Below are positions 2,591 through 34,102 of a stretch of 50,877 bases of DNA, piece after piece. The notes beneath the pieces are model-generated. The model was not told where the DNA came from. It saw only the letters and a list, made by a program, of their open reading frames with translations, and made no database searches. The DNA comes from an uncultured Clostridia bacterium (GTDB lineage Bacteria > Bacillota > Clostridia > TANB77 > CAG-508): assembly GCA_934162625.1 (NCBI GenBank), contig CAKPJM010000002.1:1-50877 (forward strand), read 5' to 3'. The translations under genes were made by a program, and so were the position numbers. Each line of letters starts with the position of its first letter. The stretch's first letter is position 1.

Positions 2591-2624
2591 AAACAAATAC
2601 TAATTTATAAATTAGTATTTGTTT
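2591..2624. repeat. Perfect 34-bp palindrome between tRNA-Lys and tRNA-Glu (AAACAAATACTAATTTATAAATTAGTATTTGTTT)
   Basis: Exact inverted repeat. Likely an inter-tRNA processing structure or terminator-like hairpin. Confidence 0.6.
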
Positions 2625-2630
2625 ATTTAA

Positions 2631-2705
2631 GGCCCGTTGGTCAAGCGGTTAAGACATCGCCCTTTCACGGCGGAGACATGGGTTCGATTCCCGTACGGGT
2701 CACCA
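2631..2705 (+). tRNA. tRNA-Glu (anticodon TTC)
   Basis: GGCCCGTTGGTCAAGCGGTTAAGAC... with anticodon loop CTTTCAC, T-arm GGTTCGATTCC and a 3' CCA. Confidence 0.85.
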
Positions 2706-2714
2706 ACAAAATAT

Positions 2715-2790
<76 letters not shown>

Positions 2791-4875: not shown

Positions 4876-4978
4876 AATATGCACTCCTTTATTTTACAAA
4901 ATCTAAGCATATTATATAGAATAAAATGTAATTTGTCTACTAGTAAATTATAAAAATGTAAAAATTTAGCAAAAAAAC

Positions 4979-7371: not shown

Positions 7372-7447
7372 GCACCATTAGCTCAGTTGGTAGAGCAACT
7401 GACTCTTAATCAGTGGGTCCAGAGTTCGAGTCTCTGATGGTGCACCA
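7372..7447 (+). tRNA. tRNA-Lys (anticodon CTT)
   Basis: GCACCATTAGCTCAGTTGGTAGAGC... with anticodon loop CTCTTAA, T-arm GGTCCAGAGTTCGAGTCTCTG and a 3' CCA. Confidence 0.85.
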
Positions 7448-10474: not shown

Positions 10475-11536
10475 CTATTGTTCTGGGTTGAACTTTTTCA
10501 TAATTTCTTGAATTTTATCATAATCATTATTTAATATATCTAAAAATGCGTCAGCACATTCAGGGTCAAACTGAGTTCCTTTACACTTTTCCAATTCAGC
10601 TTTAACAATATCTAAAGATAAAGAGTTTCTGTAAGTCCTTTTTGAAGTCATTGCATCAAATGCATCTGCAACAGCAGTTATTCTTGCTAAATATGGAATT
10701 TCTTCTCCTTTTAATTTACCAGGATACCCGAAACCATCAAAACGTTCATGATGATGCTTTACTATAGGTATAATGTCACTGAAAATAGTTGCATTTGATA
10801 ATATATGAGCACCTATTGCAGGATGATTTTTTATTTCTGAATATTCATCATCTGTTAATTTAGAATCTTTTAGAAGTATACTGTCAGGAACTCCAATTTT
10901 TCCTATATCGTGGAATAAACCACCTATTTTTAAATCGTTAAGTTCTTTTTCAGAAAGACCTAACTTTTCTCCTAGTAAAACCGAATATGCAGAAACTCTA
11001 TCAGAATGACCTCTAGTATATGTATCTTTAGCTTCTACTGTATAACGCAAAGTTTCAATGCTTTCTAAATAAGCTTTTTCTAATTTATCATAAGTATCTT
11101 TTAATTCTAAATTGATTTTTCTAATTAAATTCATTTGAGATATTGCTTTTATTCCAGATTCAATAAGTAATAGCAATTGATCAAATTTGTCGCTTTTTTC
11201 GCAATATCCTTGAATATCTAATCTCCTAATAGTTTCTAAAGGAGGTGCTAAATCTTTGTGACCAGTAAGCAACAAAATATATAAATCTTTATTAAATTTA
11301 CGAATTGCTTCTACAACTTGATCACCATGAACAGGAGTCATAATAAAATCAAGTAGCATTAAATCAAAATGCTCTGTTTTGACTCTTTCTATTGCTTCAA
11401 TAGGATCAGTTATCCCAACAAAACTATAACCAGATTTAGTTAAAAAAACTTTTAAAGAATCGAGTATTCCAGATTCATCATCTACAGCTATAATTTTGTA
11501 TTGAGAGTTTTCATTTGAATAAATGTTTTTTCTCAT
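10475..11536 (-). CDS. Two-component response regulator: REC domain fused to an HD-GYP (c-di-GMP phosphodiesterase-type) domain
   Basis: REC domain IIAVDDESGILD...LLDFIMT. HD-GYP signature HHERFDGFGYPGKLKGEEIP and HD motif GLFHDIGK. Confidence 0.85.
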   Translation of the reverse strand: MRKNIYSNENSQYKIIAVDDESGILDSLKVFLTKSGYSFVGITDPIEAIERVKTEHFDLMLLDFIMTPVHGDQVVEAIRKFNKDLYILLLTGHKDLAPPLETIRRLDIQGYCEKSDKFDQLLLLIESGIKAISQMNLIRKINLELKDTYDKLEKAYLESIETLRYTVEAKDTYTRGHSDRVSAYSVLLGEKLGLSEKELNDLKIGGLFHDIGKIGVPDSILLKDSKLTDDEYSEIKNHPAIGAHILSNATIFSDIIPIVKHHHERFDGFGYPGKLKGEEIPYLARITAVADAFDAMTSKRTYRNSLSLDIVKAELEKCKGTQFDPECADAFLDILNNDYDKIQEIMKKFNPEQ

Positions 11537-11744: not shown

Positions 11745-12651
11745 ATGATTTTTAAAGATTATTATAAAATATTAGGACTAGAAACTAATAAAGTGAACTT
11801 AAGTGAAGTAAAACTAGCTTTTAGAGAACAAGCAAAAAAATATCATCCAGATGTAAATGGAGGGAATAGTAGAACAGAAGAGAGATTTAAAGACATAAAT
11901 GAGGCATATAGAGTGTTATCTAATCCTTCTAGTAAAAGAAAATATGATAGAATCTGGAATAGAAATGTTGGAAATAAGCAGGACCAGAAAGATAACGAGG
12001 AAAATAGAAGCATAGACTCTGTATTTAGTGATTTCTTTAGTATGTTTTTTGGTTCACCAGATAACAATGAAGAAAAAGAAGAAAATAAGAAAAAGAAGAA
12101 AATTCCGGTTAAAGGGGAAAATATAGAAACAGAAATAAATGTTGGAATAGAAGATGCTTATTATGGAACAGAAAAAAAGATATCACTAAGAACTGTGAAT
12201 CGGTAAAATGAAGACTTTTTCTGTTAAGATACCAGAAGGAATAAGAGATGGAGAAAAAGTAAGACTTTTAGGACAAGGAAAGCAAGGAAAAAATGGTGGA
12301 AAAAATGGTGATATGTTTATAAAAATAAATATCCAAAACAATAATAAATTTAAGCTACAAGGTTACGATATAGTGACAGATCTACTATTAACACCATGGG
12401 AAGCAGCATTAGGGAAAAGAGTAAACATAGACTCTGTTGATGATACAGTTTCTCTATATGTTCCTCCAGGAATACAAAGCGGAGAAAAAGTCAGAATACC
12501 ACAAAAAGGATATAAGGATGGAAGAGGAAGTAGAGGGGACTTAATAGCAGAAGTAAAAACTGTAGTTCCTAAAAAGTTAACAGAAGATGAAAAAGAATTA
12601 TTTGAAAAACTAAAAAGCATTTCAACATTTAACCCGAGATCAATAAAATAA
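11745..12651 (+). CDS. DnaJ/CbpA-like co-chaperone (J domain plus C-terminal substrate-binding domains, no Zn finger), interrupted by a 1-nt C insertion at 12201
   Basis: J domain DYYKILGL...KYHPDVN in ORF 11745..12206, and the DnaJ C-terminal domain in ORF 12208..12651. Deleting the C in AAT-C-GGT joins them as ...RTVNGKMKTFSVKIPEGIRDG. Confidence 0.7.
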
Positions 12652-12745
12652 CAATGCAGAAAATTTATTTTCATAGCAAACACACAACTATAATTTTGAT
12701 AATATATTGGTTTACTAAATAGTAATATATAGAGAATTTAAAATG

Positions 12746-12774
12746 TTGACATAAACATAAAAATGAGGTATAAT
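12746..12774 (+). promoter_or_regulatory. Consensus sigma-A promoter (TTGACA, 17 bp, TATAAT)
   Basis: Perfect -35 and -10 hexamers upstream of the 12841 ORF. Confidence 0.6.
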
Positions 12775-12840
12775 TATAATTGTGATTATACATACGACAA
12801 AATACATTATTATATGTAGAAATGAGGTGCTATTATAAGC

Positions 12841-13380
12841 ATGGAGGAATTTATAAAAGGAAAACATTTTAGTATAACAGATCCACAAAATGTAAATACA
12901 GTAATATATCAAGTAAATAAAACACCAAAAGAGGAGCTAAAAGAAAATTCTCCTAAATTTACTGTTGAAAGACTAGACTTTACAGAAGAATTAGTAGGAG
13001 AAAAAAAGAAAAAAACATTTTATGTAAACAAACCTGCGCCGGAAGGAGATCATTTAGTGATATTATCTTTTGGTAATGAAAAGGTAGTAGTAAATACAGG
13101 AATTTTAGAAGATGCACAAGTAAAAATTTCTAAAAAACCAATGCCTATAAAATTTACAACACTTTATAATGAAAAGGAAACAGAGTATAAAGAAGTTCAA
13201 TATACACCAAATTTAAAAAGACCAATTTCAATAATTGACCCAGAAACAACAGAAGAAATAAAGCCAGTTTTATATTTTGATGAGGAAACAAATGAGGTAA
13301 AAGGCAAATGCAAGTTAAAACCTTTTAAAAGTTATTTTGCGTTTGAGGTTAGAGAGAAGATTAATAGGGAAGGGGAATAA
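12841..13380 (+). CDS. Hypothetical protein (179 aa)
   Basis: ORF downstream of a consensus promoter. No motif recognised. Confidence 0.5.
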   Translation: MEEFIKGKHFSITDPQNVNTVIYQVNKTPKEELKENSPKFTVERLDFTEELVGEKKKKTFYVNKPAPEGDHLVILSFGNEKVVVNTGILEDAQVKISKKPMPIKFTTLYNEKETEYKEVQYTPNLKRPISIIDPETTEEIKPVLYFDEETNEVKGKCKLKPFKSYFAFEVREKINREGE

Positions 13381-13382
13381 TT

Positions 13383-13589
13383 ATGAGCATAGAATCTACA
13401 AATGTAGAAAATATAATAACAGTTGTAGGAGGAGAAGTAGTTTCAAATCTGAAGAATAGGACAGAAATACCACCTACTAAATCAGTAAAAAAAGATAGTC
13501 CAAAAAAAGAGGAAGTTTTAACTATAGCATTAGAAGGAGAATGGGCACAAGAAAAGAGTAATAAACAAGCAGAAATAGGTGATAGATAA
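13383..13589 (+). CDS. Hypothetical small protein (68 aa), translationally coupled to the upstream ORF
   Basis: GGAAGGGGA RBS overlapping the upstream stop. Confidence 0.4.
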   Translation: MSIESTNVENIITVVGGEVVSNLKNRTEIPPTKSVKKDSPKKEEVLTIALEGEWAQEKSNKQAEIGDR

Positions 13590-13615
13590 TTATACAAATG
13601 AAAAGGTGATAAGTT

Positions 13616-15575
13616 ATGAATTATAAAGTTAAGAATGCTTTAGAAAAAAGTAAAATAGCATTAATAATAGCGTTAGCAATATGGGTTGCTTTATCCATAT
13701 TGCTTTCTGCGCCTATAGCGGTTAGCATAAAAGAAGCAACAACTAGCGGAAATATTGATATTAATAAATTTTTTGATATATTATTTTCTAATATAGGTTC
13801 AATAGGCTCAAATATGTCAAAAATATTCTTACCAGAATATTCATCTATTTATTGGAAAACAGAAGGATATGTAACAATAGGTGTATTAATTATACTAGCA
13901 GTAGGAATTGTAAAGTCAATGCCAAAGAATGAATACACAGATATAGAGCACGGATCAAGTGATTGGGCTTCTGGAGAACAATATAGTGTTTTAAGCAAGA
14001 AAAAAGGAATATTACTTGCCGAAAATCATTATTTACCAGTAGATAAACGAGGAAACGTAAACGTATTAGTAGTTGGACGGTTCAGGATCTGGTAAATCTG
14101 CATCATATGTTATTCCAAATGCATACCAACTTCTAGGATCATATGTGTTTACAGACCCAAAAGGTGAATTATATGATAAAACAGCAGGATATTTAAAAAG
14201 CCAAGGGTATGATATAAAAATATTTAATTTAGTAAATCCTAAGAATAGTGATGGATATAATCCTTTAATGCACATACAAAGTGAAATAGATGTAGATGTT
14301 ATAGCAAACACAATAGTAAAAGGTCAAAGCGATGTAAAAAATCAATCTGACCCATATTGGGATGATATGGCAGAAATGCTATTAAAAGCATTAATATATT
14401 ATTTATTAGCAACAAGACCAGAAGAAGAACAAAACTTGGCAAGTTGTGCCGAATTAGTTAGAGCTGCTAATAATAGTGGAGCAGGAAATTTATTAACAGA
14501 ACTTATGAATCAATTACCATATGATCATCCTGCTAGAATGAATTATAAATCTATAGAAATTGCACCAGAGAAAACATATAGTTCTATTCTTTCTTCACTT
14601 CAATCAAAGCTTGGTAAATTTGATTCAAAAGAAATAGCAGAACTTACTTCTACAAATACAATAAATTTTGAGGAAATAGGAAGCAGAAAAACAGCAGTAT
14701 ATGTAATTTCATCAGATACACATGCTGCATATGACTTTTTGCTTACAATATTTTTCTCACAAATGATACAAAGATTATATGACTTTGCAGACTTAAAAGG
14801 GGGAGCATTACCACAACCTACATATTTTATATTAGACGAGTTTGCAAACATTGGTAGAATACCAGATTTTGATAAAAAAATATCAACTTCAAGAAGTAGA
14901 AAAATATCATTTAGTGTTATATTACAAAACCTAGATCAATTAGAAGCTGTTTATGAAAAATCGCATGAAACAATAATAGGTAACTGTGATACTACATTGT
15001 TTTTAGGAAGTAACTCACAAAAAACAGTAGAGTATTTTTCTAAAGAATTAGGAGAAAAAACAATAAATAGAGATAGCTGGTCTGTTAGTAAAGATAAAAA
15101 CATGTGGAGACAAGGCTATAATAAATCTGATCAAGTTATGGCAAGAGCTCTTATGACTCCAGACGAGCTTAGAAGATTAGACAACGATATGTGTATCATA
15201 TTTGAGAAAGGAATTAAACCAATAAAGGCAAGAAAATATTATTATTTTAAATATGATACTTTAAGGCTAGTAAATAGATTTGCTTGCAGCCATAATGATA
15301 TAGATCCAATAGATAGAGGAGTTTGGAGAAAATATAATCCATATAATCCTTATGTAGAAAGCAGTGAACAAGAAAAAGCAAATGATACAAAAATAGAATC
15401 ACTAGATGATTTATTCGAAGATGATAATGATGCTCCAACTTTGCCACAAGATAATGAAGAATTAGAAAATAAACAAAAACAAGAAAGCAGTGATGAACTA
15501 TCATACGATGTACAGAAAGAGCTAGAAGCGAAATTTGATGAGCTGTTCGGAGCTTTAGAAGATGATGATAATTAA
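13616..15575 (+). CDS. VirD4/TraG-family type IV coupling protein (two N-terminal TM helices, acidic C-terminal tail), with Walker A interrupted by a 1-nt C insertion at 14078
   Basis: ORFs 13616..14095 (...NVLVVGRFRIW*) and 14073..15575 (SGSGKSASYVIPN...). Removing the C in GGA-C-GGT gives VLVVGGSGSGKS. Also ILDEFANIG Walker B, SRSRKISFSVILQNLDQLEA, and a DDLFEDDNDA acidic tail. Confidence 0.75.
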
Positions 15576-15578
15576 TTA

Positions 15579-15598
15579 AAAGGTGAACTGAAAAGTTC
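15579..15598 (+). terminator. Terminator hairpin GGTGAAC-TGAAAA-GTTCACC
   Basis: 7-bp stem after the coupling-protein gene. Confidence 0.55.
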
Positions 15599-15624
15599 AC
15601 CTAAAATTATATAAGGAGATAAAC

Positions 15625-16213
15625 ATGATAATTGGGATTGATTTAGATGATACAATTACAAAAACAGAAGAAATTTTATTTAAATATGCAAAAAAATATA
15701 ATGAAGAAAAGAATATAATTTATAAAATTGATAGAGATAAATGGGATTGGAATAAAGCTTTTGGATGGAACGATAAAAGCGTTGAAGTTTTTTTTGAGAA
15801 ATATTTAAAAAAAGTTTTTAAAGAAGTAGAAATAAAAGAAGACGCAAAGGAAGTAATAAATACTTTAAAAAAAGATGGAGATACAATAATAATTATAACC
15901 GCAAGGAACAGTGAAAATGTAAAAGATGTGCACAAGATTTGTGAAAAATGGCTAAAAGATAAACAAGTAGAAGTTGATAAAATAGTAATTAACGGAGAAG
16001 ATAAAGCAAAAGAGTGCAAAGAAAATAATATAGACATATTTATAGATGACCGGAATATACCATTGCGAAAATGTATACAGTAATTTAAAAATACCAGTAT
16101 TATTAATGAATAGCAGATATAACAAAGACTATGAAAATCCAAATATAAAAAGAGTATATAATTGGAAAGAAATATATAATGAAATAAGCAAATATAAAGA
16201 AAAAATCTCTTAA
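15625..16213 (+). CDS. HAD-superfamily 5'(3')-deoxyribonucleotidase (NT5C)-like phosphatase; full length requires a +1 shift at GAC-C-GGA (16051)
   Basis: DxD motif IGIDLDDTI and FIDD motif IV. The zero frame stops at 16083. The +1 frame continues 53 codons (…RVYNWKEIYNEI…, resembling the NT5C C-terminus) and ends exactly at a terminator hairpin. Confidence 0.55.
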
Positions 16214-16228
16214 TATTAAATTAAGAGA
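16200..16228. terminator. Bidirectional terminator AAATCTCTTAA-TATTAAA-TTAAGAGATTT
   Basis: Perfect 11-bp inverted repeat between the HAD gene and the convergent histidine-kinase gene. Confidence 0.65.
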
Positions 16229-16259
16229 TTTCTTCTTTATATTTGAAAACTCAAATCAG

Positions 16260-18080
16260 TTAGAACAAAGGTATTTCAATAAAAAATGTTGTTCCTTTTC
16301 CTTTTGTTGTTTCATATCTCAAATTACCATTAAAGTGAGCTTTAATATTTGAATAAGACATAAATAATCCAAGACCGGTTCCGTTTTTTCCCTTTGTTGT
16401 TACCATTTCTTTAAACAGTTTTTCTTGAACAGTTTCTGGTAGTCCACCAGCAAAATCTTCTATTTTGAAGATTATATTACTATTTTCTTTGTATATTGTA
16501 AAATTAATATTTTCATTAGATTTACCTTGAGCTTGATAAGCCTGAATTCCATTAGAAATTATATTATTAATTACTTGTACTAAACTGTTTATATTTCCTT
16601 TTACAGAAGTATTAACATCTATGCTTGCTTGAGCATTTAAATTTATTAAAGCATTTTTTAACTCATGTTTCATTAATATATCTACATAGTTTATAAGTTC
16701 TTTTACTGTAAAGCCATTAGAAGTTTGTTCTGAAAATGCAACAGCCTGTCCTTTTATAGCAGTAATAACATCAGACATATAAGATAAATGAGTTCTAATT
16801 TTATCTATCCATTCATTCATATCTTTTGCTATATCATGATGATCTTGTATAGTTACTTCTGGGTCTCCAATACTTGCATCATATTCTTTAATTAAATCAG
16901 ATAATCCTTCGGCAGCTCCTGCTATAGACATTATAGGTGTTTTTAAGTTATGAGCAATACCACCAATCATCTGTCCAAGAGAAGCCAAACGCTCCTTTTC
17001 TATAAGCATATCTTGGTTGCTCTTTATTGTTTGCATGTCTATAGTATGTTGAGTAATATCTTTAAAAAGTATTAGGGTTCCAAGATATGTATTTTTATTT
17101 TTTATACTATTAACTTCAATATTAAAGTATTTATTTAATTGAGAGAAATACCTTTCTATTTTTATAGTTTTATCATTTGATTTTGTTTTGTTAATTGCAT
17201 CTAAAAAAGCATGTCTTTTCTCTGAATCTTTAGAAAGCTTTGTAATTAAATCATTAATATTAATGTTTCGAAGTTCGCCAGTTTTTAGAGAGAATAAGTC
17301 TAAAAAAGTTTGGTTAAAATCTGTTACAATATTTTCGTCATTAACAATAATGTATCCGTCAGACATTCTATCAACAACTCTTTGAAGTGCTATTGGTGTT
17401 ACTTTTAAAAAGTCAAATTTAAATATAGCAAAAGCAATAAAAAGTATAGCAATTGTGAAAGCTATAGGAGTGGTATATATTGAGGAATTTAAAATTCCTA
17501 GTGTGGATAGTATATTCATAGTTAAACATATACCGCTTCCTGTACATATTAGTAATGATTGCTTAGAAAAAAAGCCAGAATTCTTAATAGAGTATAACAT
17601 TAATCTAAAAATTGCAATTAAAATGCAAGAATAAGAATATAATGTATGTATATAAAAATATGGTCCAAAAATAACTTGTTGTAAATCTATAGAATATGAT
17701 TGATAGAATAGATGATGATAATTATTTGTCCATAATATAATAAGAGAAATTAATGGCAATATAAATAATAATTTATGTTTTGAGGTTAATACAAGCTTAG
17801 TATTTATAAATATAGAACTAGTTAGTAGAAAGCATACAGGAAAGAAACATGTTCCAATATAAATAAATTTCTCAAATATAAAAGGGTCTGCGTTAAAAAA
17901 GTTAGTAAATATTACTTGAAATAACACACCTATAGAAATAATTAGAGTGCAAGCTAAATCAAGTATAAAGACGCGACTAAGTTGTTTACGATCTTTTTTG
18001 TGTAATAAGTAAATACAAAACCAGATCATTATAGCTACCGACATTAATAATAAATAGAATTGAATATTTAAATTTTTCAT
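16260..18080 (-). CDS. Sensor histidine kinase: multi-TM (about 7 TM) N-terminal sensor, PAS-like linker, HisKA (H-box IAHNLKTP) and HATPase_c
   Basis: Six or more hydrophobic helices over the first ~230 aa, then ERLASLGQMIGGIAHNLKTP, and G-boxes GTGLGL. Start MKNLN preceded by GAGGGGAAAG. It directly abuts the NRPS stop region, suggesting an operon. Confidence 0.8.
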   Translation of the reverse strand: MKNLNIQFYLLLMSVAIMIWFCIYLLHKKDRKQLSRVFILDLACTLIISIGVLFQVIFTNFFNADPFIFEKFIYIGTCFFPVCFLLTSSIFINTKLVLTSKHKLLFILPLISLIILWTNNYHHLFYQSYSIDLQQVIFGPYFYIHTLYSYSCILIAIFRLMLYSIKNSGFFSKQSLLICTGSGICLTMNILSTLGILNSSIYTTPIAFTIAILFIAFAIFKFDFLKVTPIALQRVVDRMSDGYIIVNDENIVTDFNQTFLDLFSLKTGELRNININDLITKLSKDSEKRHAFLDAINKTKSNDKTIKIERYFSQLNKYFNIEVNSIKNKNTYLGTLILFKDITQHTIDMQTIKSNQDMLIEKERLASLGQMIGGIAHNLKTPIMSIAGAAEGLSDLIKEYDASIGDPEVTIQDHHDIAKDMNEWIDKIRTHLSYMSDVITAIKGQAVAFSEQTSNGFTVKELINYVDILMKHELKNALINLNAQASIDVNTSVKGNINSLVQVINNIISNGIQAYQAQGKSNENINFTIYKENSNIIFKIEDFAGGLPETVQEKLFKEMVTTKGKNGTGLGLFMSYSNIKAHFNGNLRYETTKGKGTTFFIEIPLF

Positions 18081-18095
18081 TTTCTTTCCCCTCAT

Positions 18096-21000
18096 TTATA
18101 TAAATTTTATTTTTTGTAAATATTTTATATATTTTATCATATAATCTTTATTAATAGTCTTCCAACTAAATTTTATTTCTTTAAAAAAGTCTTCTGTAAA
18201 ATTACAATTTAATCTAATATTTGATGTATAAACTAATTGTTTATTTTCATTTAAATCGTATATTATGCCAGATAAAATTTCTTTTCTCTTGTTATCTGCT
18301 AAAATTCCAGTAATAATATCTGTCATCATTTTTTCTGGAACAGGCAATAGGTTAATACCTAATTCACTAAGTGTTTCAACGAACAATTTAATAGGCAATA
18401 AGTTTGTGTTATAAATGTGCAAAACATTGCAAATGCTTGTATAGCTAGCAGATTTAATTATAGCTTCTGCCGCTAAATCAACAGGAGTTAGTTCAATAGA
18501 ATGAGATAATAGATAATTAGGGAAAGCACCAATCTCTATGAAGGACTTAATGCGCTTTGCAAAAGCGTATTCATTTGGAACACGCCGTCAGAATACCTAT
18601 TTGTTATATTTCCTAAACGTAAAATTTGGGCATCTAGTCCTTTAGAGACAATTGCTTCCAATACTAAAAGTTCTGCTCTAAACTTTGTTGTAGAGTATAC
18701 TCCTTTAATATTTTGGCCAACATATATGTCAGACTCTTTAAATATTTTTTTATCATTAATATTTTCAGGAGTTTCTATAACAGTTTCTTCTTTTTCGCCG
18801 TTACCAGATACACTTATTGTTGAAACGTGCAATAATCTTTTTCCTGTATTTAAACAAAAATCAATAACATTTTGAGTTCCTTTTACATTTATTTCTTCAA
18901 ATTTCTTCTTTATACCAAAGTGTTTAACTAGTGCACCAGAGTTTATAACGATGTCAACATTATTCTTTAATTCTAAATAATCATTTTCACACAATCCTAA
19001 ATCTTCTTTTACAATATCTCCACAAACTACTTTTATCCTATTGTCAAACAATTCATTATATTTATTTCCAAAGTAGAAATTTAGAATTCCTTTTAAACGT
19101 TCTTTTATATCTAAAGCATCTTTTTCTCTTACCAAACAGTATGCAATACCACTATTAGACTGTAAAAATGCATCTAAAACGTGTGCGCCTAAATAACCTG
19201 TTGAACCAATTAATAACATATTATCAAATTTGATTTTTTTAATTGTATTTAAATTATCTATAGTATTTCTTGCTAAAACAGCATTAACTTTACTATAGTC
19301 ATAATTTTTTATAAATACTTCATCAGGAGTTTTTAAATTAGCAGACAACTGTTTTATAGTTGGAAAAGCAAATATATCACCATATTCAAATTCCAAACCA
19401 TATTTAACCGCTTCTATTTGCATACTAATTGCTGCAACTGAATCTCCGCCAATGTCAAAGAAATTATCGTTGATATCTATGTCATCAATTTTTAATATGT
19501 TTTTCCAAATTTGAAGAAGCTTTTCTTCAACAGAATTTAATTCCTCAATATTTATTTTATTATTTGCAACTGGTTTGTTTAGCTCAGGTAAAGGAAGGGC
19601 CTTTCTATCAATCTTTCTATTTATTGTATAAGGCATTTGATCTAATTTTACAATGTATGTAGGTACCATATATGCTGGAAGTGCTTTCCTTAAAGCATCT
19701 TTTACAATGTCCTCTGAAACATCTTTGTCACAAGTATAGTAACCACATAAGGCCTCCTTTCCATCTATTTCAATTTTATTTACTATTGCTGAAGAAACAG
19801 TTGGAACATTTAGCATTACATTTTCAATTTCCCCAAGCTCAATTCTTAATCCTCTTAATTTAATTTGATTATCAATTCTTCCTAAACATTGAACTTTTCC
19901 ATCAAATGTCCATCTACCAATATCTCCAGATTTATACATCTTTCCTTCGCCAAAAGGATTATCTAAGAATTTTTCTGCTGTTAATTCTGGTTTACCTATG
20001 TATCCATAACCTACTTGAATTCCAGAAATGTATATTTCACCAACAACACCAATAGGTAAAGGTTTCATGTTTTTATCTAATATGTGAATTTGAGTATTCA
20101 TTATTGGAGGACCAATAGTAATTTCCTTTTCTCCATTTAAATTTTGAACATTACAAAGTATAGTTATTTCACTAGGACCATATATATTGTAAATTGTTAT
20201 ATCATCTGCTAGAGCCCTTAAGTCTTCAACAAATTTTTCTGGAAGAGGTTCTCCACCAAAAACCATATTTTTTACTTGAGCTAATGCAGTATCTGGTTCT
20301 CTATTATCATAGTTGATTTTCATTAAACTTGGAGTAACAGTCATAACATCAACATGACATTTTCTAATTAATTCATCTAAAAGTTTTGGATTTCTATGTT
20401 CTGCATTATTAGCCATAGCTATTTTTAATCCATGAGTTAATGAAACTATAATTTCATAAACGAAAATATCAAAAGGTGTAGAAGTTACAGAGGCTATACA
20501 ATGCTTATTACCCTCTTTTAAATAATCTAAAACAAGAGTCATAGCTTTAACCATGTTAGCAAAGCCTACTTGGTTTAGCATTGCACCTTTAGGTTTTCCA
20601 GTAGAACCAGATGTATAAATAAGATAAGATAGATCCTCACGATTTATTTTAACATTTGGATTTTCAAAGTTTTTATTGTAAATATCTTCTATGTTTAAAT
20701 CAATTTCTATGCAATTTTCAATAGAAGACACTCTATCCTTTAATTCTGCTTGTGTAAGTACATATTTTGTTTTACTATCTTCTAAATAATATTTTGTTCT
20801 CTCAATAGGGTAATTAGGGTCAACATTAAAGAATGCAGCACCAGCTTTTAAAATAGCCATCATACATACTATTGTTTCAAAAGAACGATTTGTCATTACA
20901 CAAACAATATCATTTGATCCAATACCTTTTTCTATTAATAGGTGAGCTAAGCTATTTGCTCTTTTATTTAACTCATCATAAGTTAAAGTCTTGTCATTAC

Positions 21001-24000
21001 ATATAATTGCAATATTGTTTGGATGCATTTTTACTTGTTCCTCAAATATAGAAACAACTGTATCATCATTAATAGGTCCATAAGTATTATTAAATTGTTT
21101 TAATAATACTTTTTCCTTTGGAGTTATAATTTCAATATCGTCAATACTTATAGCTGTATTAGAAATTAATTGATTTAATATAAATATATAGTGTTCTAAG
21201 AAACTATTAATTGTTTCTTTTTTAAACAGACTAGAGTTATATTCTAAATTAAATCTAGCTAAATCTGGAATGATTTCTAACCAAATATTAAATTTAGCAG
21301 TTTTGGTATTTGAATACAATAATTCTAAATTAGCATTTTCTAAATTATATTTTGATTTTTTTGTGTTTTGATAAGTTAATACTACATCAAGTAAAGAAGA
21401 GTTTTTATCTAAATTTAATTTTTTAAGTATAAGTTCATAAGGATATGGCTGATTTGATATTGCATTTGTTACTATGTTCTGCGTGCTGTTTAATAAACTG
21501 TCAACTGAATTTTCAGGTAGAATATCATTTTTTAATACAATATTGTTTACAAACATACCAATAATATTATTAAATTCTTCATAATTTCTTCCTTCTAATG
21601 GACTACCAACAATTATATTAGTTTGGCCGGTATATTTATATAATAAAATATATAAAGCAGAAAGGAATACTGTATATGCAGAAACGTCGTGGCTCTTTGC
21701 AAGTTCTTCTATTTTTGCAAAAGTTTCTTTAGGCATGTCATAAGATATTTTATCACCTTCATAAGATTTTGAATTTGCAGGGAAATCATAAGGTAAGTTT
21801 AGTGAAGAAATTTGAGAATTAGCGAATGTACTTGTCCAGTATTCATCATATTTTTTTATTTCGTCACTTTCAACAAAAGATTTTTCCCATTCTGAATAGT
21901 CTATATATTCGAATTTTAATTTATCAATATTATTGTTACTATATAAGGTACAAAAATCTTGTATTAATATATTCAAAGAAGCACCATCCATAATTATATG
22001 ATGAGTATCTAGTAAAAGTAGAGTCTTTTTATTATCAAGAACGTATACAGAGGCTCTAAGTAAAGGCGCAACTGCTAAATCAAAAGGCTTAGGAAATTTA
22101 TCAAGAATAGACTGTAAATCTTTTTCTTGACCATTATAGCAATCAATTTTGATTTGAGTGTGATTAATAATTCTCTGATACAACTCACCATCAACAATTT
22201 CAAATTGAGTTCTAAGAGAGCTTTGATTATCAAGTATTTTATTAATACAGTTTCTAATTTTATTAACATCTAAAACAGAATCTATTAATAATCCACCTGA
22301 GACATTATATACAACATTGTTTCCACCAGAGATAGCTTGTGTTGAGTAAAAGATTCTTTTTTGTGCAAAAGAAGCTTGATAGATATCTTTGATTTCTGCT
22401 TTCTTTAAAGGGCAGGTCTTGTTATATAATTCCTTAGATGAGATAATATCAGACAAATCTTTAATGATAGGATTTTCTAACACATCTTTAACAAAAATTT
22501 GTACACTAAGTTCACTATAAATTTTTGCACATAAATTTATAGCTGTTAAAGAATCTCCTCCTAATTCAAAGAAAGAATCAGTTATGCTAATATTTTTAAT
22601 TGTTAATATATTTTCCAATATTTTTATTAATATTTTATCTGTATTATTTCTAGGTGAAATTATACTTTTACATCTAGTTTCTATAATTGGTTCTGGCAAA
22701 CTTTTTCTGTCAATTTTCCCATTAGGAGTATAAGGGATTTTTTCCAATTTAATAAAATATTGAGGTATCATATATTTTGGCAATTTTTTTTGTAAAGTAT
22801 TTCTAAGACTTGTCAAATCAATTTCTGCAGTAGATGTAAAATACGAACATAAAAACTCATGTCCATCTTCAGAAATCTTTTTCACTACAATACAATTAGT
22901 TATATTCTCAAAGTTAATTATTTCGTTTTCTATTTCGCCTAATTCTATTCTAAGGCCCCTTATTTTTACTTGATTGTCGCATCTTCCAAGACATACAATT
23001 TCACCATTAGGTTGAAAATATCCTAAATCACCAGTCTTATAAAGTTTTATATTACTACTAGAGAATTTATTTAGTAGGTAACTTTTTTTTGTCAAGTTTT
23101 CATTGTTTAGATATCCAAGTCCAACTCCATCACCAGATATATATATTTCACCAGGAGTGTTTATAGGGCAAACATTTAAATTTGTATCTAGAATGTAAAC
23201 TTGTGTATTGTATAAAGGATGTCCTATAGTAATGCGATTATAGTTTGTAACATCTGTTAAAGTTGAAAAAACAGTAGTTTCGCTAGGGCCATATCCATTG
23301 TATATAATTGGAGAACATAAATCTTTTAGTTCATTTACTAAAGAAATAGGCAGTTGTTCTCCAGCAAGAGTTATAAATTTCAAATTTGAAAGAGATGGAA
23401 TATCATCAATATTATTAACTAGCAACTGCATTCTAGAAGGTGTAGTTTGAATTATTTCTATATTGTTCTTTTCGATTAAGTTATTCAATAATCTAGGAAT
23501 TGTTTGCTCCTGTTCATTTGCAATTACTAATCTTAATCCTTTTTGAAGTGATACTAATGTTTCAAAAATAAATATATCAAAACTTACTGTTGTAACAGAT
23601 ACAATTGTTCTATAAATATTTTCTTTTAAATATTGTACATAATTATTACAGTAATTAGTAAGGTTAGACAATGATTTGTGAATTAACATTACCCCTTTAG
23701 GTTTTCCTGTAGAGCCAGAAGTATATATAATATATGCTAAATCATCTGGTTTATTTATATTTATTAAATTATCTTTATTAGAATTATATAATTCATTATC
23801 AAGCTCAACAAATAATTTGTTATCAAAAGTTACTTTGTTTTCCAATCTTTTAAAAGTTAATAGTAATTTTGCATTACTGTTACTTAACATATATTCAATT
23901 CTGTCTTGAGGATATTCTGGGTCTATTGGGATATAGCAAGCACCAGATTTCAAAACAGCAAGAATAGATACAATCATTTCTAGAGAACGATTTACCATAA

Positions 24001-25537
24001 TACCTACAATATTATTTCTTTCAATTCCGTTTTCTCTTAAATAGCAAGCTAAACTATTAGCTTTTTCGTTTAATTCTCTATATGTTAATTTTTGATCCTC
24101 AAAAACAACGGCAATATTATCTGGAGTTTTTTCTACTTGTTCTTCAAATAATTGAGTAATTGTTTTATTACGTGGATAATCTGCATAAGTATTATTAAAA
24201 TCATATAATATTTTTTTCTTCTCATCAGGAGTTACAATCTCAATGTCTTTTAATTTAACAGTTTCATTTTCTAAAATTTGATTTATAATATGTAAAATTC
24301 TAGTATGAATAGAACAAATATCATCAATAGAATATTTGCTTATTAAGTAATCATATGCAATATTTATATTTCCTGTATCATTCATATCATAAAGGTGAAT
24401 ATCAATATCATCAGAGATATAGTCATTTCCAATCCAAGTTGAATCATAATTAATGCCAGCAGACTGTTTATTACTTCTAACATTTTGATATGAAAGTAGA
24501 ATATTATATAAATTTGGAATTGTATTATCTTTTTTTCTTAAATTTTCTAATATATATTGATACGGATACTTTTGGTGTCTAAATATTTTTAAAAAGTCGG
24601 TAGAAATATTTGATAAAAATTCCGAAAATGAATTTTCATGATTAATAGAAATTCTAAAAGGAACTGTACTAATATACATACCAGTTGTTTGTTTCTCCTT
24701 AAAATTTCCTCTGTTTAGTATAGGAGTCCCAATAGTAAAATCACCTAATGAAGACACTCTTGAAATATAAAGAGAAAAAACAGCCATGAAGAAATTAAAA
24801 GCAGAAGCTTTATTTTTTTTACAAAAATCGTTAATTAAATTCATAGTTTCTTTTGGTATAACAAACTGTTTTCTTTTAGCTTTGCACTCTAAAGAAGAGT
24901 TTTCTTTTTCGACACTAATAGAAGGAATTGTAGCAACTTCTGGAATTGTTTCAAAAATGCTATTCCAAAACTCTTCATCCTTTTTGAATTTTTCACTATT
25001 TAAATATTCTTGTTCAGAAAAAATATAATCTATGTAAGAAGGATTTGTTCCTTCAATATCTTGAGAATTAACTAGTTTTTCATAGTAACCCATAATTTCA
25101 TTAACAACAAGACCAGCTGTCCAAGCATCAGAAATTAAATGGTGAGCTGTTATAATAAAACCACCATGGTTATCTTCAAATTTAAATAATTTAAAATTGT
25201 ATAAAAAATTATCTAAAACATTAAATTGTGTATTAGACATTTGCTTCTCTAAATGCTTTATATCATTAGCAGAAGAAACTGAAACTATATCTACATCAAA
25301 GTTAGTAAAGTCATCAACGTACTGTTGAACAGTATTATTTTGCATAGTGAATTTTAGTCTAAAACTATCATTATTTTCAACAAATAAATTTATAGCACTC
25401 TTCAATGCATTAAAATTCACTTTTTGTAAAATTGTTACGCTACCGGTAATGTTCTCGATAGGAGTCTCCTTATAAAACTCACCTGTTAGCCATATAGACT
25501 TTTGTGGGTTTGTTAAGTTATACAATTTCTTTTCCAT
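18096..25537 (-). CDS. Bimodular nonribosomal peptide synthetase C-A-T-C-A-T-R (terminal thioester reductase); the R domain is split by a 1-nt deletion near 18570
   Basis: C domains: HHLISDAWT and HHIIMDGAS. A domains: LAYIIYTSGSTGKPKGVM / LSYLIYTSGSTGKPKGAM, YKTGDLG / YKSGDIG and GRxDxQVKIRGxRIELGEIE. T domains: FFELGGDSLTAI and FFDIGGDSVAAI. R domain: LLIGSTGYLGAHVL ... YSTTKFRAE. The main ORF stops at 18536, while the conserved R-domain tail (…YAFAKRIKSFIEIGAFPNYLL…TPVDLAAEAI…) continues in another frame to 18096. Confidence 0.85.
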
Positions 25538-25815
25538 AATATCACCTTTAATATTTTCTACATCATATATATCGCGAAAATACTTATAAATCAAGTATTC
25601 TACTAAATTGTAACATAAAATACAAACTAATGTAAACTGTTTGACACAAAGATATAAAAACAAACAATTTCCGACAAATTCGTTTTTGGGCGTATGCAAT
25701 ACGCCCCTACAAATCCCACCTCTCACTGCACACCTCACACATCCATTTCACAAATTCCAATTTCTTTGATTAAAATACCAGATTTAGGAAATGATATTAT
25801 AAAAGGAGATTTTGT

Positions 25816-26946
25816 ATGTACGAATATAAAAAAAGACAAAGCAAATTTAAAAGAATATTTCTAAATTTTATTTTAATTATAATTGTTGCTGCTGCAAGTA
25901 TATTTATTTATGATATGTATACAAATATTGATGTGTATTCAGCAGAAGAAGAGGAAAATAAAGCAATAAAATTATCTTCAAATAAAAGTGACGTACAATT
26001 AGATGAAGAGGATGCAACAAAAGTTTTGGAAAAAACAATTAAATCTGTTGTTGGAATTTCAAAAATAAAAAATACAGGTAGTTCTATATTTTTAAATAAC
26101 AGCACCTCGGAACTAGGACTCGGAACTGGAATGATTGTGTCTGAAAATGGTTATATATTAACAAATTGGCATGTTGCAGGAAATAAATATAGTAATTGTT
26201 ATGTAACACTAGATAACGGCAGTGTGTATAATGGAAATGTAATGTGGGCAGATAGCGATTTGGATTTAGCAATTATAAAAATATCAGCATCTAATTTGAA
26301 TTATATAAGTTTAGGGGATTCAGACAATATAAAAATAGGTGAAAAGACTTATGCTATAGGTAATCCTATAGGAGTTGAATTTCAGAGAACAGTTACATCT
26401 GGGATAATAAGTGGTGTAAATAGAACAGTAAAAATAGAGGAAAACAATGAAGCTTCATATATGGAAGACTTAATACAAACAGATGCAACCATTAATCCAG
26501 GAAATAGCGGAGGACCATTAATAAATACTAAAGGAGAAGTTATAGGAGTAAACTCAATAAAAATAAAAGAAGCAGAAGGAATAGGATTTGCAATACCTAT
26601 AAATATTATAAAACCTATTTTAGAAAGCTTTTCTGTAAATGGAAATTTTGAAGAGGCGTATTTAGGATTATTTGCATATGATAAAGAGGTTATTCCATAT
26701 TTGGATAATAGCATTAATTTTGATTCTGGAATTTATATAGCTCAAATTTCTGTAGATGGGCCAAGTAAAACATCAGGCTTGAAAGTTGGAGACATTATAA
26801 CTAAAATAGACAATATATCTATAAATAAGATGAGTGAACTTAGAAATTATATTTATACTAAAAAAATAGGAGATGAAGTTAGCTTAACAATTTTAAGAAA
26901 CAAAAAAGAAAGAACTGTAAAAATAAAACTTGGAAAAAAATCGTAG
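25816..26946 (+). CDS. HtrA/DegP-family trypsin-like serine protease with a C-terminal PDZ domain, membrane anchored
   Basis: TNWHV (His), DLAIIK (Asp), GNSGGPLIN (Ser), PDZ-like GLKVGDIITKIDN. AAAAGGAGA RBS. Confidence 0.85.
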   Translation: MYEYKKRQSKFKRIFLNFILIIIVAAASIFIYDMYTNIDVYSAEEEENKAIKLSSNKSDVQLDEEDATKVLEKTIKSVVGISKIKNTGSSIFLNNSTSELGLGTGMIVSENGYILTNWHVAGNKYSNCYVTLDNGSVYNGNVMWADSDLDLAIIKISASNLNYISLGDSDNIKIGEKTYAIGNPIGVEFQRTVTSGIISGVNRTVKIEENNEASYMEDLIQTDATINPGNSGGPLINTKGEVIGVNSIKIKEAEGIGFAIPINIIKPILESFSVNGNFEEAYLGLFAYDKEVIPYLDNSINFDSGIYIAQISVDGPSKTSGLKVGDIITKIDNISINKMSELRNYIYTKKIGDEVSLTILRNKKERTVKIKLGKKS

Positions 26947-32575: not shown

Positions 32576-32819
32576 TTTTAATCACCCGCCTTCAAAGAAA
32601 TTACTCTAATAATGATTTGCTTTGGGCAGACACAGGGCCTGCCCCTACATATATAGCAATTTCTACAATGTCTTCGGTTGCCGAGGGCGGTAACCCTCTA
32701 CAGCATTTGCGACAAATTTGTTTTTTGGCGTATGCAATACGCCCCTACGAATCCAACTTCCAATCTCACACTTCAATAAAACAAATTACAATTTGTTAAA
32801 AATTTTAAGGAGAATAATC

Positions 32820-34000: not shown

Positions 34001-34102
34001 GAATAGAGTAGAGAATAAATAGTTAAGTGTTACTAAACGGGAAGTTGTTAGTAAACGAAAAGGCTTTTAGCTTTGCTGATTTATTTTCGCATTCCGCTAT
34101 TA
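34001..34102 (+). promoter_or_regulatory. THF (tetrahydrofolate) riboswitch aptamer upstream of folT-folC
   Basis: Matches THF-I hallmarks in order: AATAGAGTAG ... GTTAAGTGT ... ACGGGAAGT ... ACGAA ... CGCATTCCGCTATT (P1 closing). This is the folT 5' leader position. It is followed by hairpin GGAAGCTCC/GGGGGCTTTTTTT overlapping the RBS. Confidence 0.7.

What the first reader, a model, noticed from the sequence alone, without database searches (positions are those of the whole stretch)
16260..25537. Single-gene bimodular NRPS (C-A-T-C-A-T-R) apparently translationally coupled to a multi-TM/PAS sensor histidine kinase
The domain order is condensation-adenylation-thiolation twice followed by a terminal NAD(P)H-dependent thioester reductase. 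That is the architecture known from gut-Clostridia clusters that release dipeptide aldehydes which cyclise to dihydropyrazinones/pyrazinones (protease-inhibitor type) and from aureusimine-type synthetases. There is no PPTase, MbtH, thioesterase or transporter in the flanks. The NRPS stop (18096) abuts the start of a ~7-TM histidine kinase (18080), with no response regulator adjacent. A secondary-metabolite synthetase hard-wired to a membrane sensor kinase has not, to my knowledge, been described. The promoter region carries a repeated hairpin motif shared with deoC.
Basis: partly seen in the sequence, partly recalled or inferred. Interest (0 to 1): 0.8.

Follow-up and report, generated by a model that had tools for sequence, protein, structure and literature searches.

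The report
Peptide synthetase wired to membrane sensor
An uncultured gut Clostridium carries a two-module peptide-aldehyde synthetase followed by a seven-helix membrane sensor kinase and, further downstream, a cyclic-di-GMP-degrading response regulator; the trio is conserved in about 80 species, and synthetase and sensor are swapped together between near-identical strains, as expected if the peptide is a strain-specific signal read by the kinase.

Summary
The NRPS (C-A-T-C-A-T-R) and the 7TM-PAS histidine kinase are real and adjacent, with a 15-nt gap and no terminator. Three details of the finding are wrong.

- **Not one ORF.** A 10-bp deletion at 18566/18567 frameshifts the R domain (stop at 18536). 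An otherwise identical contig is intact.
- **A regulator exists.** A REC–HD-GYP response regulator sits at 10475-11536 on the same strand. It directly follows the kinase in most relatives; here a ~4.7-kb insert separates them.
- **The promoter hairpin** is a window-specific 90-nt repeat.

The host is an uncultured gut Clostridia lineage, not C. perfringens. A kinase-based scan gave 80 species loci. Wherever enough upstream DNA was held, an NRPS ends just before the kinase (median gap 14.5 nt), down to 36% kinase identity.

In near-identical backgrounds only the NRPS specificity modules and the kinase sensor are replaced. In one pair, the A1 domain and the 7TM domain changed in two separate blocks.

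Best reading: a signal synthase–receptor–c-di-GMP circuit with strain-specific variants, like agr or Rpf. I found no description of it, but the two key papers on this NRPS family were unreadable here.

The parts
25607..25636 (-). Promoter-like site (TTTACA-18-TG-TACAAT) upstream of the NRPS start
   Evidence: Consensus scan only. It lies downstream of the repeat insertion.
18536..25537 (-). NRPS ORF as it stands: C1-A1-T1-C2-A2-T2 plus the N-terminal two thirds of R (2333 aa), ending at a premature stop at 18536-18538
   Evidence: Motifs HHLISD and HHIIMD (C domains), TSGSTGKPKG x2 (A), GGDS x2 (T), GSTGYLG and YSTTK (R) are intact. Stachelhaus codes: A1 DIFQTAGVFK, A2 DIYTVGIILK.
18566..18567 (-). 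Junction of a 10-bp deletion (AGATGAAAAT) that frameshifts the R domain
   Evidence: Alignment to L005 and L004. L091 is identical to the window over 7,821 bp apart from these 10 bp.
18096..18565 (-). Out-of-frame remainder of the R domain (C-terminal subdomain, about 155 aa), ending at TAA 18096-18098
   Evidence: Aligns to the C-terminal part of 6VTJ in the intact orthologue.
18081..18095 (-). 15-nt NRPS-kinase junction containing the AGGGGA ribosome-binding site
   Evidence: Across 78 loci the gap has a median of 14.5 nt, and 56 are at most 30 nt. No terminator-like site lies here.
16260..18080 (-). Sensor histidine kinase (605 aa + stop): 7TM sensor (~17394-18053), PAS (~17049-17387), DHp with His377 (16950-16952), HATPase_c (~16266-16595)
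   Evidence: Pfam. Seven hydrophobic segments; H-box HNLKTP, N box, G boxes. Homologues listed.
17038..22535 (-). Hypervariable cassette relative to strain L007: NRPS module 2 + R + kinase 7TM and PAS. It is 50-69% nt identical, while the flanks are mostly 84-99.7% identical (NRPS module 1 96-99.7%, RR 97.7-99.7%)
   Evidence: Sliding identity profile and domain identity table.
16194..16240 (-). Terminator-like hairpin just after the kinase stop
11745..16083 (+). Opposite-strand insert separating the kinase from its regulator: split DnaJ, two unknown ORFs, a VirD4-type coupling protein, a HAD hydrolase
   Evidence: Pfam. Absent between kinase and regulator in most relatives, where the gap is 11-300 nt.
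10475..11536 (-). Response regulator with HD-GYP output (REC aa 15-124; HD_5 aa 166-326; motifs LLDF, HDIGK, HHERFDGFGYP)
   Evidence: Found downstream of the kinase on the same strand in 68 of 82 distinct loci. Best NCBIfam match is a c-di-GMP phosphodiesterase RR, below cutoff.
25667..25756 (.). 90-nt repeat element with hairpin GGGCGTAT-GCA-ATACGCCC; second copy at 32705-32794 in front of deoC
   Evidence: Absent from all 90 related loci held at that point. It is not part of the conserved system.
25816..26946 (+). HtrA-type serine protease with PDZ domain, divergent from the NRPS
   Evidence: Pfam and NCBIfam. Found in this position in 47 of 82 loci and in L088. Any functional link is unproven.

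Best explanation
The unit is a three-gene signalling module, not a stand-alone biosynthetic gene.

1. Synthesis. A short NRPS makes a very small peptide. In this lineage the NRPS is C-A-T-C-A-T-R, so the product is most likely an N-acylated dipeptide aldehyde released by the reductase domain. The PPTase must be encoded elsewhere.
2. Sensing. The 7TM(-PAS) sensor of the kinase encoded 15 nt downstream recognises that product or a spontaneous derivative of it.
3. Output. The kinase autophosphorylates on His377 and passes the phosphate to the REC domain of the HD-GYP regulator. The regulator changes cyclic-di-GMP (or a related dinucleotide) hydrolysis rather than binding DNA.

The NRPS specificity domains and the kinase sensor are exchanged as matched alleles between otherwise near-identical strains. 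The system therefore behaves like a set of strain-specific signal variants, comparable to agr groups, with an Rpf-like output.

Shown here: gene content, conserved order and spacing, intact catalytic motifs, and the mosaic co-replacement. Inferred: the chemistry of the product, ligand binding by the 7TM domain, phosphotransfer to this regulator, and c-di-GMP as the output.

In the window itself the R domain is frameshifted by a 10-bp deletion. As written, this copy should be signal-negative but receptor-positive, unless the deletion is an assembly artefact.
For: Conservation from the kinase side:
- The kinase query found 80 species loci, from 88% down to 36% identity.
- An NRPS lies directly upstream on the same strand in all loci with enough upstream DNA. 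The median gap is 14.5 nt, and 56 of 78 gaps are at most 30 nt.

Conservation from the NRPS side:
- 5 of 6 NRPS representatives, at 35-48% T-R identity, have a HisKA_7TM kinase directly downstream.

The regulator:
- REC-HD-GYP follows the kinase in 68 of 82 loci. This includes the distant Sporobacter-type loci, as a 503-515-aa REC-DUF3369-HD-GYP protein.
- The regulator has no DNA-binding domain.

The partner NRPS varies in architecture (C-A-T-C-A-T-R, C-A-T-R, C-A-T-C-A-T-TE, C-A-T-TE) while the kinase and regulator stay the same.

Mosaics, as amino-acid identity (nucleotide profiles):
- Window allele vs L007: C1 98, A1 98 | C2 36, A2 44, T2 44, R 35-45, 7TM 52, PAS 46 | kinase core 97. The RR is 99%.
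- L001 vs L070: about 100% everywhere except two separate blocks. One is A1 (44%). The other is the R C-terminus plus 7TM (73% and 56%).
- Window vs L001, which are different species: C2-A2-T2-R_N is 97-99% although the kinase core is 84% and the RR 83%. The allele is shared across species.

Statistics:
- Among locus pairs with kinase-core identity of at least 0.85: same A codes and 7TM at least 0.8, 12 pairs; different codes and 7TM below 0.8, 39 pairs; exceptions, 3 and 1.
- Label permutation after regressing on kinase-core identity gives p about 5e-4.
Against: - No chemistry, binding or expression data exist for any member.
- The A-domain codes of this allele match no canonical specificity.
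- One pair (L022 vs L025/L029) differs in the A1 code but keeps 85% 7TM identity.
- Co-replacement could partly reflect physical linkage: the sensor lies next to the 3' end of the NRPS. In L001 vs L070, however, the two blocks are 4.2 kb apart.
- Eight loci show no HD-GYP regulator within 10 kb.
- One NRPS relative has no kinase.
- No c-di-GMP riboswitch or diguanylate cyclase was seen nearby.
- The locus pairs in the statistics are not phylogenetically independent.
- Many loci are MAG contigs, and some have broken ORFs.
Confidence: 0.55

Rival explanations
1. The kinase and regulator act upstream of the NRPS. The 7TM-PAS kinase senses an unrelated gut cue, such as a membrane, diet or host signal. 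Through c-di-GMP it controls production or use of a peptide-aldehyde protease inhibitor that is aimed at host or competitor proteases.
For: The NRPS family is reported to make dipeptide aldehydes that inhibit proteases (as summarised in PMC12327764). The genes are arranged as an operon. HtrA is a frequent divergent neighbour.
Against: The regulator has no DNA-binding output. A general environmental cue would not require the sensor domain to be replaced whenever an A domain is replaced in otherwise identical genomes. The kinase core and the regulator stay conserved while only the sensor varies.
Confidence: 0.2
2. The co-variation is hitchhiking. The NRPS is a recombination and diversification hot spot, for example under selection from target proteases. 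The adjacent 5' part of the kinase gene is dragged along without recognising the product.
For: In three of the mosaics the variable tract is contiguous and runs from inside the NRPS into the kinase. The right-hand breakpoint sometimes includes PAS and sometimes does not.
Against: In L001 vs L070 the two replaced blocks are separated by 4.2 kb of 98-100% identical DNA. The right-hand breakpoints fall at domain borders (7TM/PAS or PAS/DHp) and never inside the kinase core. The adjacency is kept across NRPS architectures and down to 36% kinase identity.
Confidence: 0.15
3. The kinase is an orphan kinase of the clostridial sporulation-initiation type that merely sits beside an NRPS. This is the reading suggested by a low-GC Clostridium with 'no adjacent regulator'.
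For: In this window no regulator is directly adjacent. Orphan kinases acting on Spo0A are well known in clostridia (papers listed).
Against: The organism is not C. perfringens or a close relative. A cognate-looking REC-HD-GYP gene follows the kinase in most relatives and is present here 4.7 kb downstream. The NRPS-kinase adjacency is near-universal in the loci examined.
Confidence: 0.03
4. For this window only, the NRPS is a dead gene. The pair is then a decaying remnant with only the kinase still in use.
For: A 10-bp frameshifting deletion removes the C-terminal subdomain of R in frame. Several MAG loci also show fragmented NRPS ORFs.
Against: L091 is identical over 7.8 kb except for those 10 bp and is intact. 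The change is therefore very recent, or a minority variant, or an assembly artefact. All other catalytic motifs are intact.
Confidence: 0.3

Closest known systems
Gut-Clostridia dipeptide-aldehyde NRPS family (Guo et al. 2017 Cell; rup/ruminopeptin, Schneider & Balskus 2018) and AusA of Staphylococcus aureus
   Same: Two modules ending in a thioester reductase. The T-R didomain is closest to the PCP-R structure 6VTJ and the AusA reductase 4F6L. AusA is the best NCBIfam model. The hosts are from gut samples, mostly uncultured Clostridia. PMC12327764 summarises dipeptide aldehydes as the products of this gut family.
   Different: AusA lacks the N-terminal C domain, and this protein scores below the AusA cutoff (1431 vs 2500 bits). 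In what I could read, the family is discussed as making host or bacterial protease inhibitors. No paper I could search links it to a 7TM kinase plus HD-GYP regulator or to matched synthase/sensor alleles. The two primary papers could not be read here.
agr quorum sensing of staphylococci (agrBDCA specificity groups)
   Same: The signal-synthesis genes and a polytopic membrane sensor kinase are adjacent. A hypervariable tract covers the signal determinants and the sensor domain, while the kinase core and the regulator stay conserved. Alleles are shared across species. This comparison to agr rests on my general knowledge; the pattern in this system was shown.
   Different: In agr the signal is a ribosomal thiolactone peptide and the regulator (AgrA) binds DNA. 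Here the signal would be nonribosomal and the output an HD-GYP phosphodiesterase. There is no sequence relationship to AgrC or AgrA.
Rpf/DSF system of Xanthomonas (RpfF synthase, RpfC kinase, RpfG REC-HD-GYP)
   Same: The logic is the same: a small-molecule synthase, a membrane sensor kinase and a response regulator whose output is an HD-GYP c-di-GMP phosphodiesterase. The regulator here has the same REC + HD-GYP architecture with HD and GYP motifs.
   Different: The Rpf signal is a fatty acid made by an enoyl-CoA-hydratase-type enzyme, and RpfC is a hybrid kinase. No allele polymorphism of this kind is known to me. The phylum and the sensor domain are different.
Vfm quorum sensing of Dickeya (PMC9306890)
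   Same: The signal is made by NRPS-type adenylation enzymes (VfmO/P). Their predicted specificity is polymorphic between strains, and that polymorphism determines which strains can talk to each other. A two-component system transduces the signal.
   Different: Vfm is a 26-gene cluster in Gammaproteobacteria. The polymorphism there is linked to an ABC permease (VfmG) rather than to the kinase sensor, and the regulator output is transcriptional. Here the module is a compact three genes with a c-di-GMP output.

Membership tests
Reductase-terminated bimodular NRPS (AusA / gut dipeptide-aldehyde type) | Domain order (C-)A-T-C-A-T-R in one polypeptide | tested here: inconclusive
   The domain order is present. 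In this window, however, the polypeptide is interrupted in R by a 10-bp deletion. The orthologues L005, L001 and L091 are intact single ORFs of 2483 aa.
Reductase-terminated bimodular NRPS (AusA / gut dipeptide-aldehyde type) | Catalytic motifs: C HHxxxD, A core motifs and Lys517, T GGDS serine, R NAD(P)H-binding GxxGxxG and YxxxK | tested here: met
   HHLISD and HHIIMD, TSGSTGKPKG x2, GGDS x2, GSTGYLG, YSTTK. Both Stachelhaus codes end in K.
Reductase-terminated bimodular NRPS (AusA / gut dipeptide-aldehyde type) | Scores above the curated AusA equivalog cutoff | tested here: not met
   NF047350 scores 1431 bits against a cutoff of 2500, covering aa 378-2479 only. It is AusA-like, not AusA.
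Reductase-terminated bimodular NRPS (AusA / gut dipeptide-aldehyde type) | Product is a dipeptide aldehyde or pyrazinone | not testable with these tools
   Needs heterologous expression with a PPTase and LC-MS. The test of whether C1 is a starter-type C domain was inconclusive.
Classical two-component sensor histidine kinase (HisKA type) | H-box histidine in DHp, plus N, G1 and G2 boxes in the ATPase domain | tested here: met
   HNLKTP (His377), NNIISN, DFAGG, GTGLGL. Pfam finds HisKA and HATPase_c.
Classical two-component sensor histidine kinase (HisKA type) | A cognate response regulator encoded with it | tested here: met
   REC-HD-GYP lies directly downstream in most of 82 loci and 4.7 kb downstream here. 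Phosphotransfer itself was not tested.
RpfG-type REC-HD-GYP c-di-GMP phosphodiesterase regulators | REC domain with a phospho-acceptor Asp, and an HD-GYP domain with HD and GYP motifs | tested here: met
   Pfam finds Response_reg and HD_5 over 6-169 of 170 positions. Motifs DDE, LLDF, HDIGK and HHERFDGFGYP are present.
RpfG-type REC-HD-GYP c-di-GMP phosphodiesterase regulators | Hydrolyses c-di-GMP | not testable with these tools
   The best NCBIfam model is a c-di-GMP phosphodiesterase RR (NosR family), but at 202 bits it is below the cutoff of 400.
Pherotype-type quorum sensing (agr-like matched synthase/receptor alleles) | A hypervariable tract confined to the signal determinants and the receptor sensor, with conserved transmitter and regulator | tested here: met
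   kinase core 96-100% and RR 99% identical, against 7TM 46-60% and swapped NRPS domains 36-53%, in five independent pairs.
Pherotype-type quorum sensing (agr-like matched synthase/receptor alleles) | The receptor responds specifically to the cognate signal, and the response depends on cell density | not testable with these tools
   Requires biochemistry or genetics in organisms that are so far uncultured.
Orphan sporulation kinases of clostridia | No partner regulator in the genomic context; acts on Spo0A | tested here: not met
   A partner regulator is conserved next to the kinase.

The most novel reading that the evidence does not exclude
The gut-Clostridia reductase-terminated NRPS family has so far been interpreted as a source of protease inhibitors. 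In a large part of its members it may instead be the synthase arm of a previously unrecognised cell-cell signalling system. Strain-specific (acyl)peptide aldehydes or acids would be read by matched 7TM histidine kinases and converted into cyclic-di-GMP changes by an HD-GYP regulator. Alleles would be exchanged within and between species to create private communication channels in the gut.
Probability: 0.4. Interest if true: 0.9.

Novelty: new variant of a known kind. Interest (0 to 1): 0.8.

Why it matters
Short reductase-terminated NRPS genes are among the most widespread biosynthetic genes of the human gut, and their native role is unsettled. One kinase variant of this system alone was seen on 333 contigs and indexed in 632 blocks of the assembly collection.

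A conserved, co-diversifying link to a membrane sensor kinase and a c-di-GMP phosphodiesterase gives a concrete hypothesis for that role: self-signalling with strain-specific variants. It can be tested without culturing the hosts, by synthesising the predicted products and reconstituting the kinase and regulator.

The natural domain swaps would also be useful. They act as ready-made maps of which NRPS and sensor segments set specificity, which matters for NRPS engineering and for building orthogonal signalling parts.

Tried and rejected
1. C. perfringens origin and an orphan sporulation kinase. This was my first guess, from the 27% GC and the apparently lone kinase. The genome scan rejected it: the hits are uncultured gut Clostridia such as Clostridium sp. 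CAG:452 and CAG:273 and Ca. Scatovivens, and a partner regulator is conserved.

2. Promoter hairpin as an operator shared with deoC. Rejected: it is a 90-nt repeat, absent from all 90 related loci held at that point, and matches no Rfam family.

3. A c-di-GMP riboswitch that could close the loop onto the operon. None was found in the window or in six related loci.

4. Typing C1 as a starter C domain by comparison with solved structures. Inconclusive: the best hits are ordinary C domains (Txo2 and others), and the rhizomide starter C domain scores only E = 1e-13.

5. Assigning amino acids from the Stachelhaus codes. The codes of the window allele match no canonical code I know, although other alleles carry Gly-, Val-, Thr-, Pro- and Asn-type codes.

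6. Literature. Ten full-text searches found no paper connecting this NRPS family with a histidine kinase or an HD-GYP regulator. Guo 2017 (PMC5302092) and Schneider & Balskus 2018 were not readable, so prior mention of the neighbouring genes in those papers cannot be excluded.

7. Structure prediction of the 7TM sensor. Not run.

8. PPTase, MbtH, TE or exporter in the window. None found.


Full report
**What is in the window**

On the minus strand an NRPS starts at ATG 25537. Pfam finds two Condensation, two AMP-binding and two PP-binding domains, and a terminal NAD_binding_4 thioester reductase. The order C-A-T-C-A-T-R is therefore correct.

It stops at 18536-18538 after 2333 residues. The last ~155 residues of the reductase are encoded in another frame, down to TAA 18096-18098.

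The cause is a 10-bp deletion (AGATGAAAAT, junction 18566/18567). It shows up against intact 2483-aa orthologues in L005 (96.5% nt identity) and L001-L004 (about 90%). An independent metagenome contig, L091, matches window 21070-13260 with no mismatch at all over 7,821 bp except that it carries these 10 bp. The frameshift is therefore either a very recent variant or an assembly artefact. It is not an old pseudogene.

All catalytic motifs are intact: HHxxxD in both C domains, the A3 core in both A domains, GGDS in both T domains, and GSTGYLG and YSTTK in R.

Fifteen nucleotides after the R-frame stop, behind an AGGGGA ribosome-binding site, a 605-aa histidine kinase starts at 18080. It has a HisKA_7TM sensor (seven hydrophobic segments), a PAS domain, His377 in an HNLKTP H-box, and a complete ATPase domain. 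No terminator-like site separates the two genes, and one follows the kinase at 16240-16194. Co-transcription is well supported. Translational coupling is only possible, because the kinase has its own ribosome-binding site.

No PPTase, MbtH, thioesterase or dedicated exporter is present anywhere in the window.

**Whose genome it is**

The 27% GC and the seemingly orphan kinase first suggested C. perfringens and a sporulation kinase. That is wrong.

I scanned one genome per species using the kinase as the query. It returned 80 loci. Almost all come from uncultured gut Clostridia MAGs of humans, rabbits, mice and sheep. They include Clostridium sp. CAG:452, CAG:273 and Candidatus Scatovivens. From memory, these are GTDB TANB77/CAG-508. 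More distant hits are Sporobacter termitidis (40%) and a MAG labelled Deltaproteobacteria (36%).

The lineage is common. One kinase variant alone was seen on 333 contigs.

**The pairing is conserved, and there is a third partner**

In every locus with enough upstream sequence, an NRPS lies directly upstream of the kinase on the same strand. The stop-to-start distance has a median of 14.5 nt. It is at most 30 nt in 56 of 78 loci, and a few overlap.

Clustering all ORFs of the loci showed a third conserved gene. It is a ~350-aa response regulator with a REC domain and an HD-GYP domain. It starts 11-300 nt after the kinase in most species and is detectable downstream on the same strand in 68 of 82 distinct loci.

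The window has this gene at 10475-11536. It carries the LLDF acceptor region and the HDIGK and HHERFDGFGYP motifs. In the window's clade it is separated from the kinase by a ~4.7-kb opposite-strand insert (4-4.8 kb across the clade). The insert holds a split DnaJ, two unknown ORFs, a VirD4-type coupling protein and a HAD hydrolase. So 'no response regulator adjacent' is literally true here but misleading.

The distant loci have a longer REC-DUF3369-HD-GYP protein in the same place.

The NRPS partner varies: C-A-T-C-A-T-R, C-A-T-R, C-A-T-C-A-T-TE and C-A-T-TE. The constant is a very short NRPS that begins with a C domain, followed by the 7TM kinase and the HD-GYP regulator.

The link also holds from the NRPS side. 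Among representatives of the closest reductase-terminated NRPS clusters, five of six that I looked up have a HisKA_7TM kinase immediately downstream. Their T-R identity to the window is 35-48%. One, from an isolate genome, has none and has an MFS transporter upstream instead.

**Synthetase and sensor are replaced together**

The regulator is far more conserved across species (70-83%) than the kinase (51-65%) or the NRPS (36-55%). The reason appears when close genomes are compared.

*Window versus L007.* A sliding profile shows:
- 96-99.7% nt identity over NRPS module 1;
- an abrupt fall to 50-69% from about 22535 to about 17038;
- a return to 93-96% in the kinase core and 97.7-99.7% in the regulator.

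At the protein level the identities are C1 98, A1 98, then C2 36, A2 44, T2 44, R 35-45, 7TM 52, PAS 46, then kinase core 97.

*L001 versus L070.* These are about 100% identical over 18 kb except for two separate blocks. One is the A1 domain (44% aa). The other covers the last ~146 residues of R plus exactly the 7TM domain (73% and 56%). The 4.2 kb between the blocks is 98-100% identical, and PAS and the kinase core are 100%.

*Other pairs.* L025 vs L035, L001 vs L008 and L022 vs L041 show the same rule: kinase core 96-100%, 7TM 50-60%, and different A-domain codes.

*The reverse case.* The window and L001 belong to different species (kinase core 84%, regulator 83%). Yet they share a nearly identical C2-A2-T2-R_N segment (97-99%) and PAS domain (95%). 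Alleles therefore cross species boundaries.

*A-domain codes.* I anchored Stachelhaus codes on PheA (1AMU), after confirming the reference fragment. About fifteen code types are shuffled between the two modules across the loci. They include canonical Gly, Val, Thr, Pro and Asn codes. The window has DIFQTAGVFK and DIYTVGIILK, for which I can assign no substrate.

*Statistics.* Among locus pairs with kinase-core identity of at least 0.85:
- 12 have the same codes and 7TM identity of at least 0.80;
- 39 have different codes and 7TM identity below 0.80;
- 3 and 1 are exceptions.

After regressing on kinase-core identity, a label permutation gives p of about 5e-4. The pairs are not independent, so the individual mosaics carry more weight than this p value.

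**Interpretation**

The regulator has no DNA-binding domain. The variable part of the kinase is its sensor. The breakpoints sit at the 7TM/PAS or PAS/DHp borders. A change of an A domain 4 kb away is accompanied by a change of the 7TM domain.

The simplest account is that the 7TM sensor recognises the NRPS product, and that matched alleles define strain-specific signal variants. The output would be HD-GYP-mediated turnover of a cyclic dinucleotide.

In logic this combines agr (a hypervariable synthase/sensor tract) with Rpf/DSF (synthase, kinase and REC-HD-GYP). The nearest precedent for an NRPS-dependent polymorphic signal is Vfm of Dickeya (PMC9306890).

The chemistry is inferred. The T-R didomain is closest to PCP-R 6VTJ and to the AusA reductase. 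AusA is the best NCBIfam model, although below its cutoff. The gut family is reported to release dipeptide aldehydes (PMC12327764). Because the protein starts with a C domain, I expect an N-acylated product rather than a pyrazinone, but the C1 subtype test was inconclusive.

The rival readings are:
- the kinase senses another cue;
- the co-variation is pure hitchhiking;
- the kinase is an orphan sporulation kinase.

They are weighed in their own sections. The first two are not excluded. The third is essentially refuted.

**The promoter motif**

The hairpin-containing element at 25667-25756 has a 77% identical copy at 32705-32794 in front of deoC. It is absent from all related loci, including L005 and L007, and matches no Rfam family. 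It is a small repeat inserted in this strain, not part of the system.

**Novelty and limits**

Ten full-text searches found nothing that links this NRPS family to a kinase or an HD-GYP regulator, or that describes matched alleles. The two primary papers on the family could not be opened, so the flanking genes may have been drawn there.

The NRPS family is known. The three-gene circuit and its co-diversification appear to be new, but they follow a known design principle. I therefore rate this a new variant of a known kind, with high interest. It gives the most widespread gut NRPS family a testable native function.

All functional steps remain inferred: the product, ligand binding, phosphotransfer and c-di-GMP hydrolysis. 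Many loci are MAG contigs.

Noticed in passing
window 25816-26946 (+): An HtrA-type serine protease with a PDZ domain is divergently transcribed from the NRPS. It holds this position in 47 of 82 related loci and in L088, but not in the distant Sporobacter-type loci. A peptide-aldehyde synthetase next to a serine protease is suggestive (target, processing or self-protection), but it may simply be local synteny.
   Followed up: partly
L056, L058-L061, L063 (e.g. L060 8765-10768): Some relatives carry a second histidine kinase (~670 aa) between the NRPS and the 7TM kinase. It has the same kinase core motif but a different sensor, with two TM segments and a large extracytoplasmic domain. In L059-L061 the NRPS is monomodular (C-A-T-R).
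   Followed up: partly
window 11745-16083 (+) and 192-1559 (-): The insert between kinase and regulator carries a VirD4/TraG-type coupling protein (14073-15575) and a DnaJ split into two ORFs (11745-12206 and 12208-12651). The DnaJ split is also present in L001, while L011 has an intact 307-aa version. A second, weaker coupling-protein-like ORF lies at 192-1559. These look like remnants of a conjugative element.
   Followed up: partly
window 34002-34101 (+): A THF riboswitch (77.5 bits) lies in front of a 607-aa fusion of an ECF-transporter S component with a Mur-ligase/FolC-like domain (34161-35984). ECF ATPase and T components follow at 36077-37377.
   Followed up: no
L022 and L041 (both from MAG CANQCT01): Two contigs of one rabbit-gut MAG carry syntenic copies of the locus. 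Their kinase cores are identical, but the 7TM and PAS domains are 50% and 46% identical and the NRPS codes differ. The flanks are 80-92% identical. Most likely two strains or species with different alleles from one sample were binned together.
   Followed up: partly
window 40651-42471 (+): The GC peak (0.44 against a background of 0.27) is the Ala/Glu-rich coiled-coil tail of a flotillin-like SPFH/Band_7 protein. It is not foreign DNA or an rRNA gene.
   Followed up: yes
window 2515-2787 and 7372-7444 (+); 4303-4884 (-): There is a cluster of three tRNA genes plus one further tRNA gene, and a LexA-like repressor (HTH + Peptidase_S24).
   Followed up: no
L008, L013, L015-L017, L021, L023, L034, L047, L053, L085: In roughly a quarter of the MAG loci the NRPS is broken into several ORFs, while the kinase is usually intact. 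This could reflect frequent loss of the synthase (receptor-only strains), or assembly problems in a repetitive and polymorphic gene. I did not resolve which.
   Followed up: no
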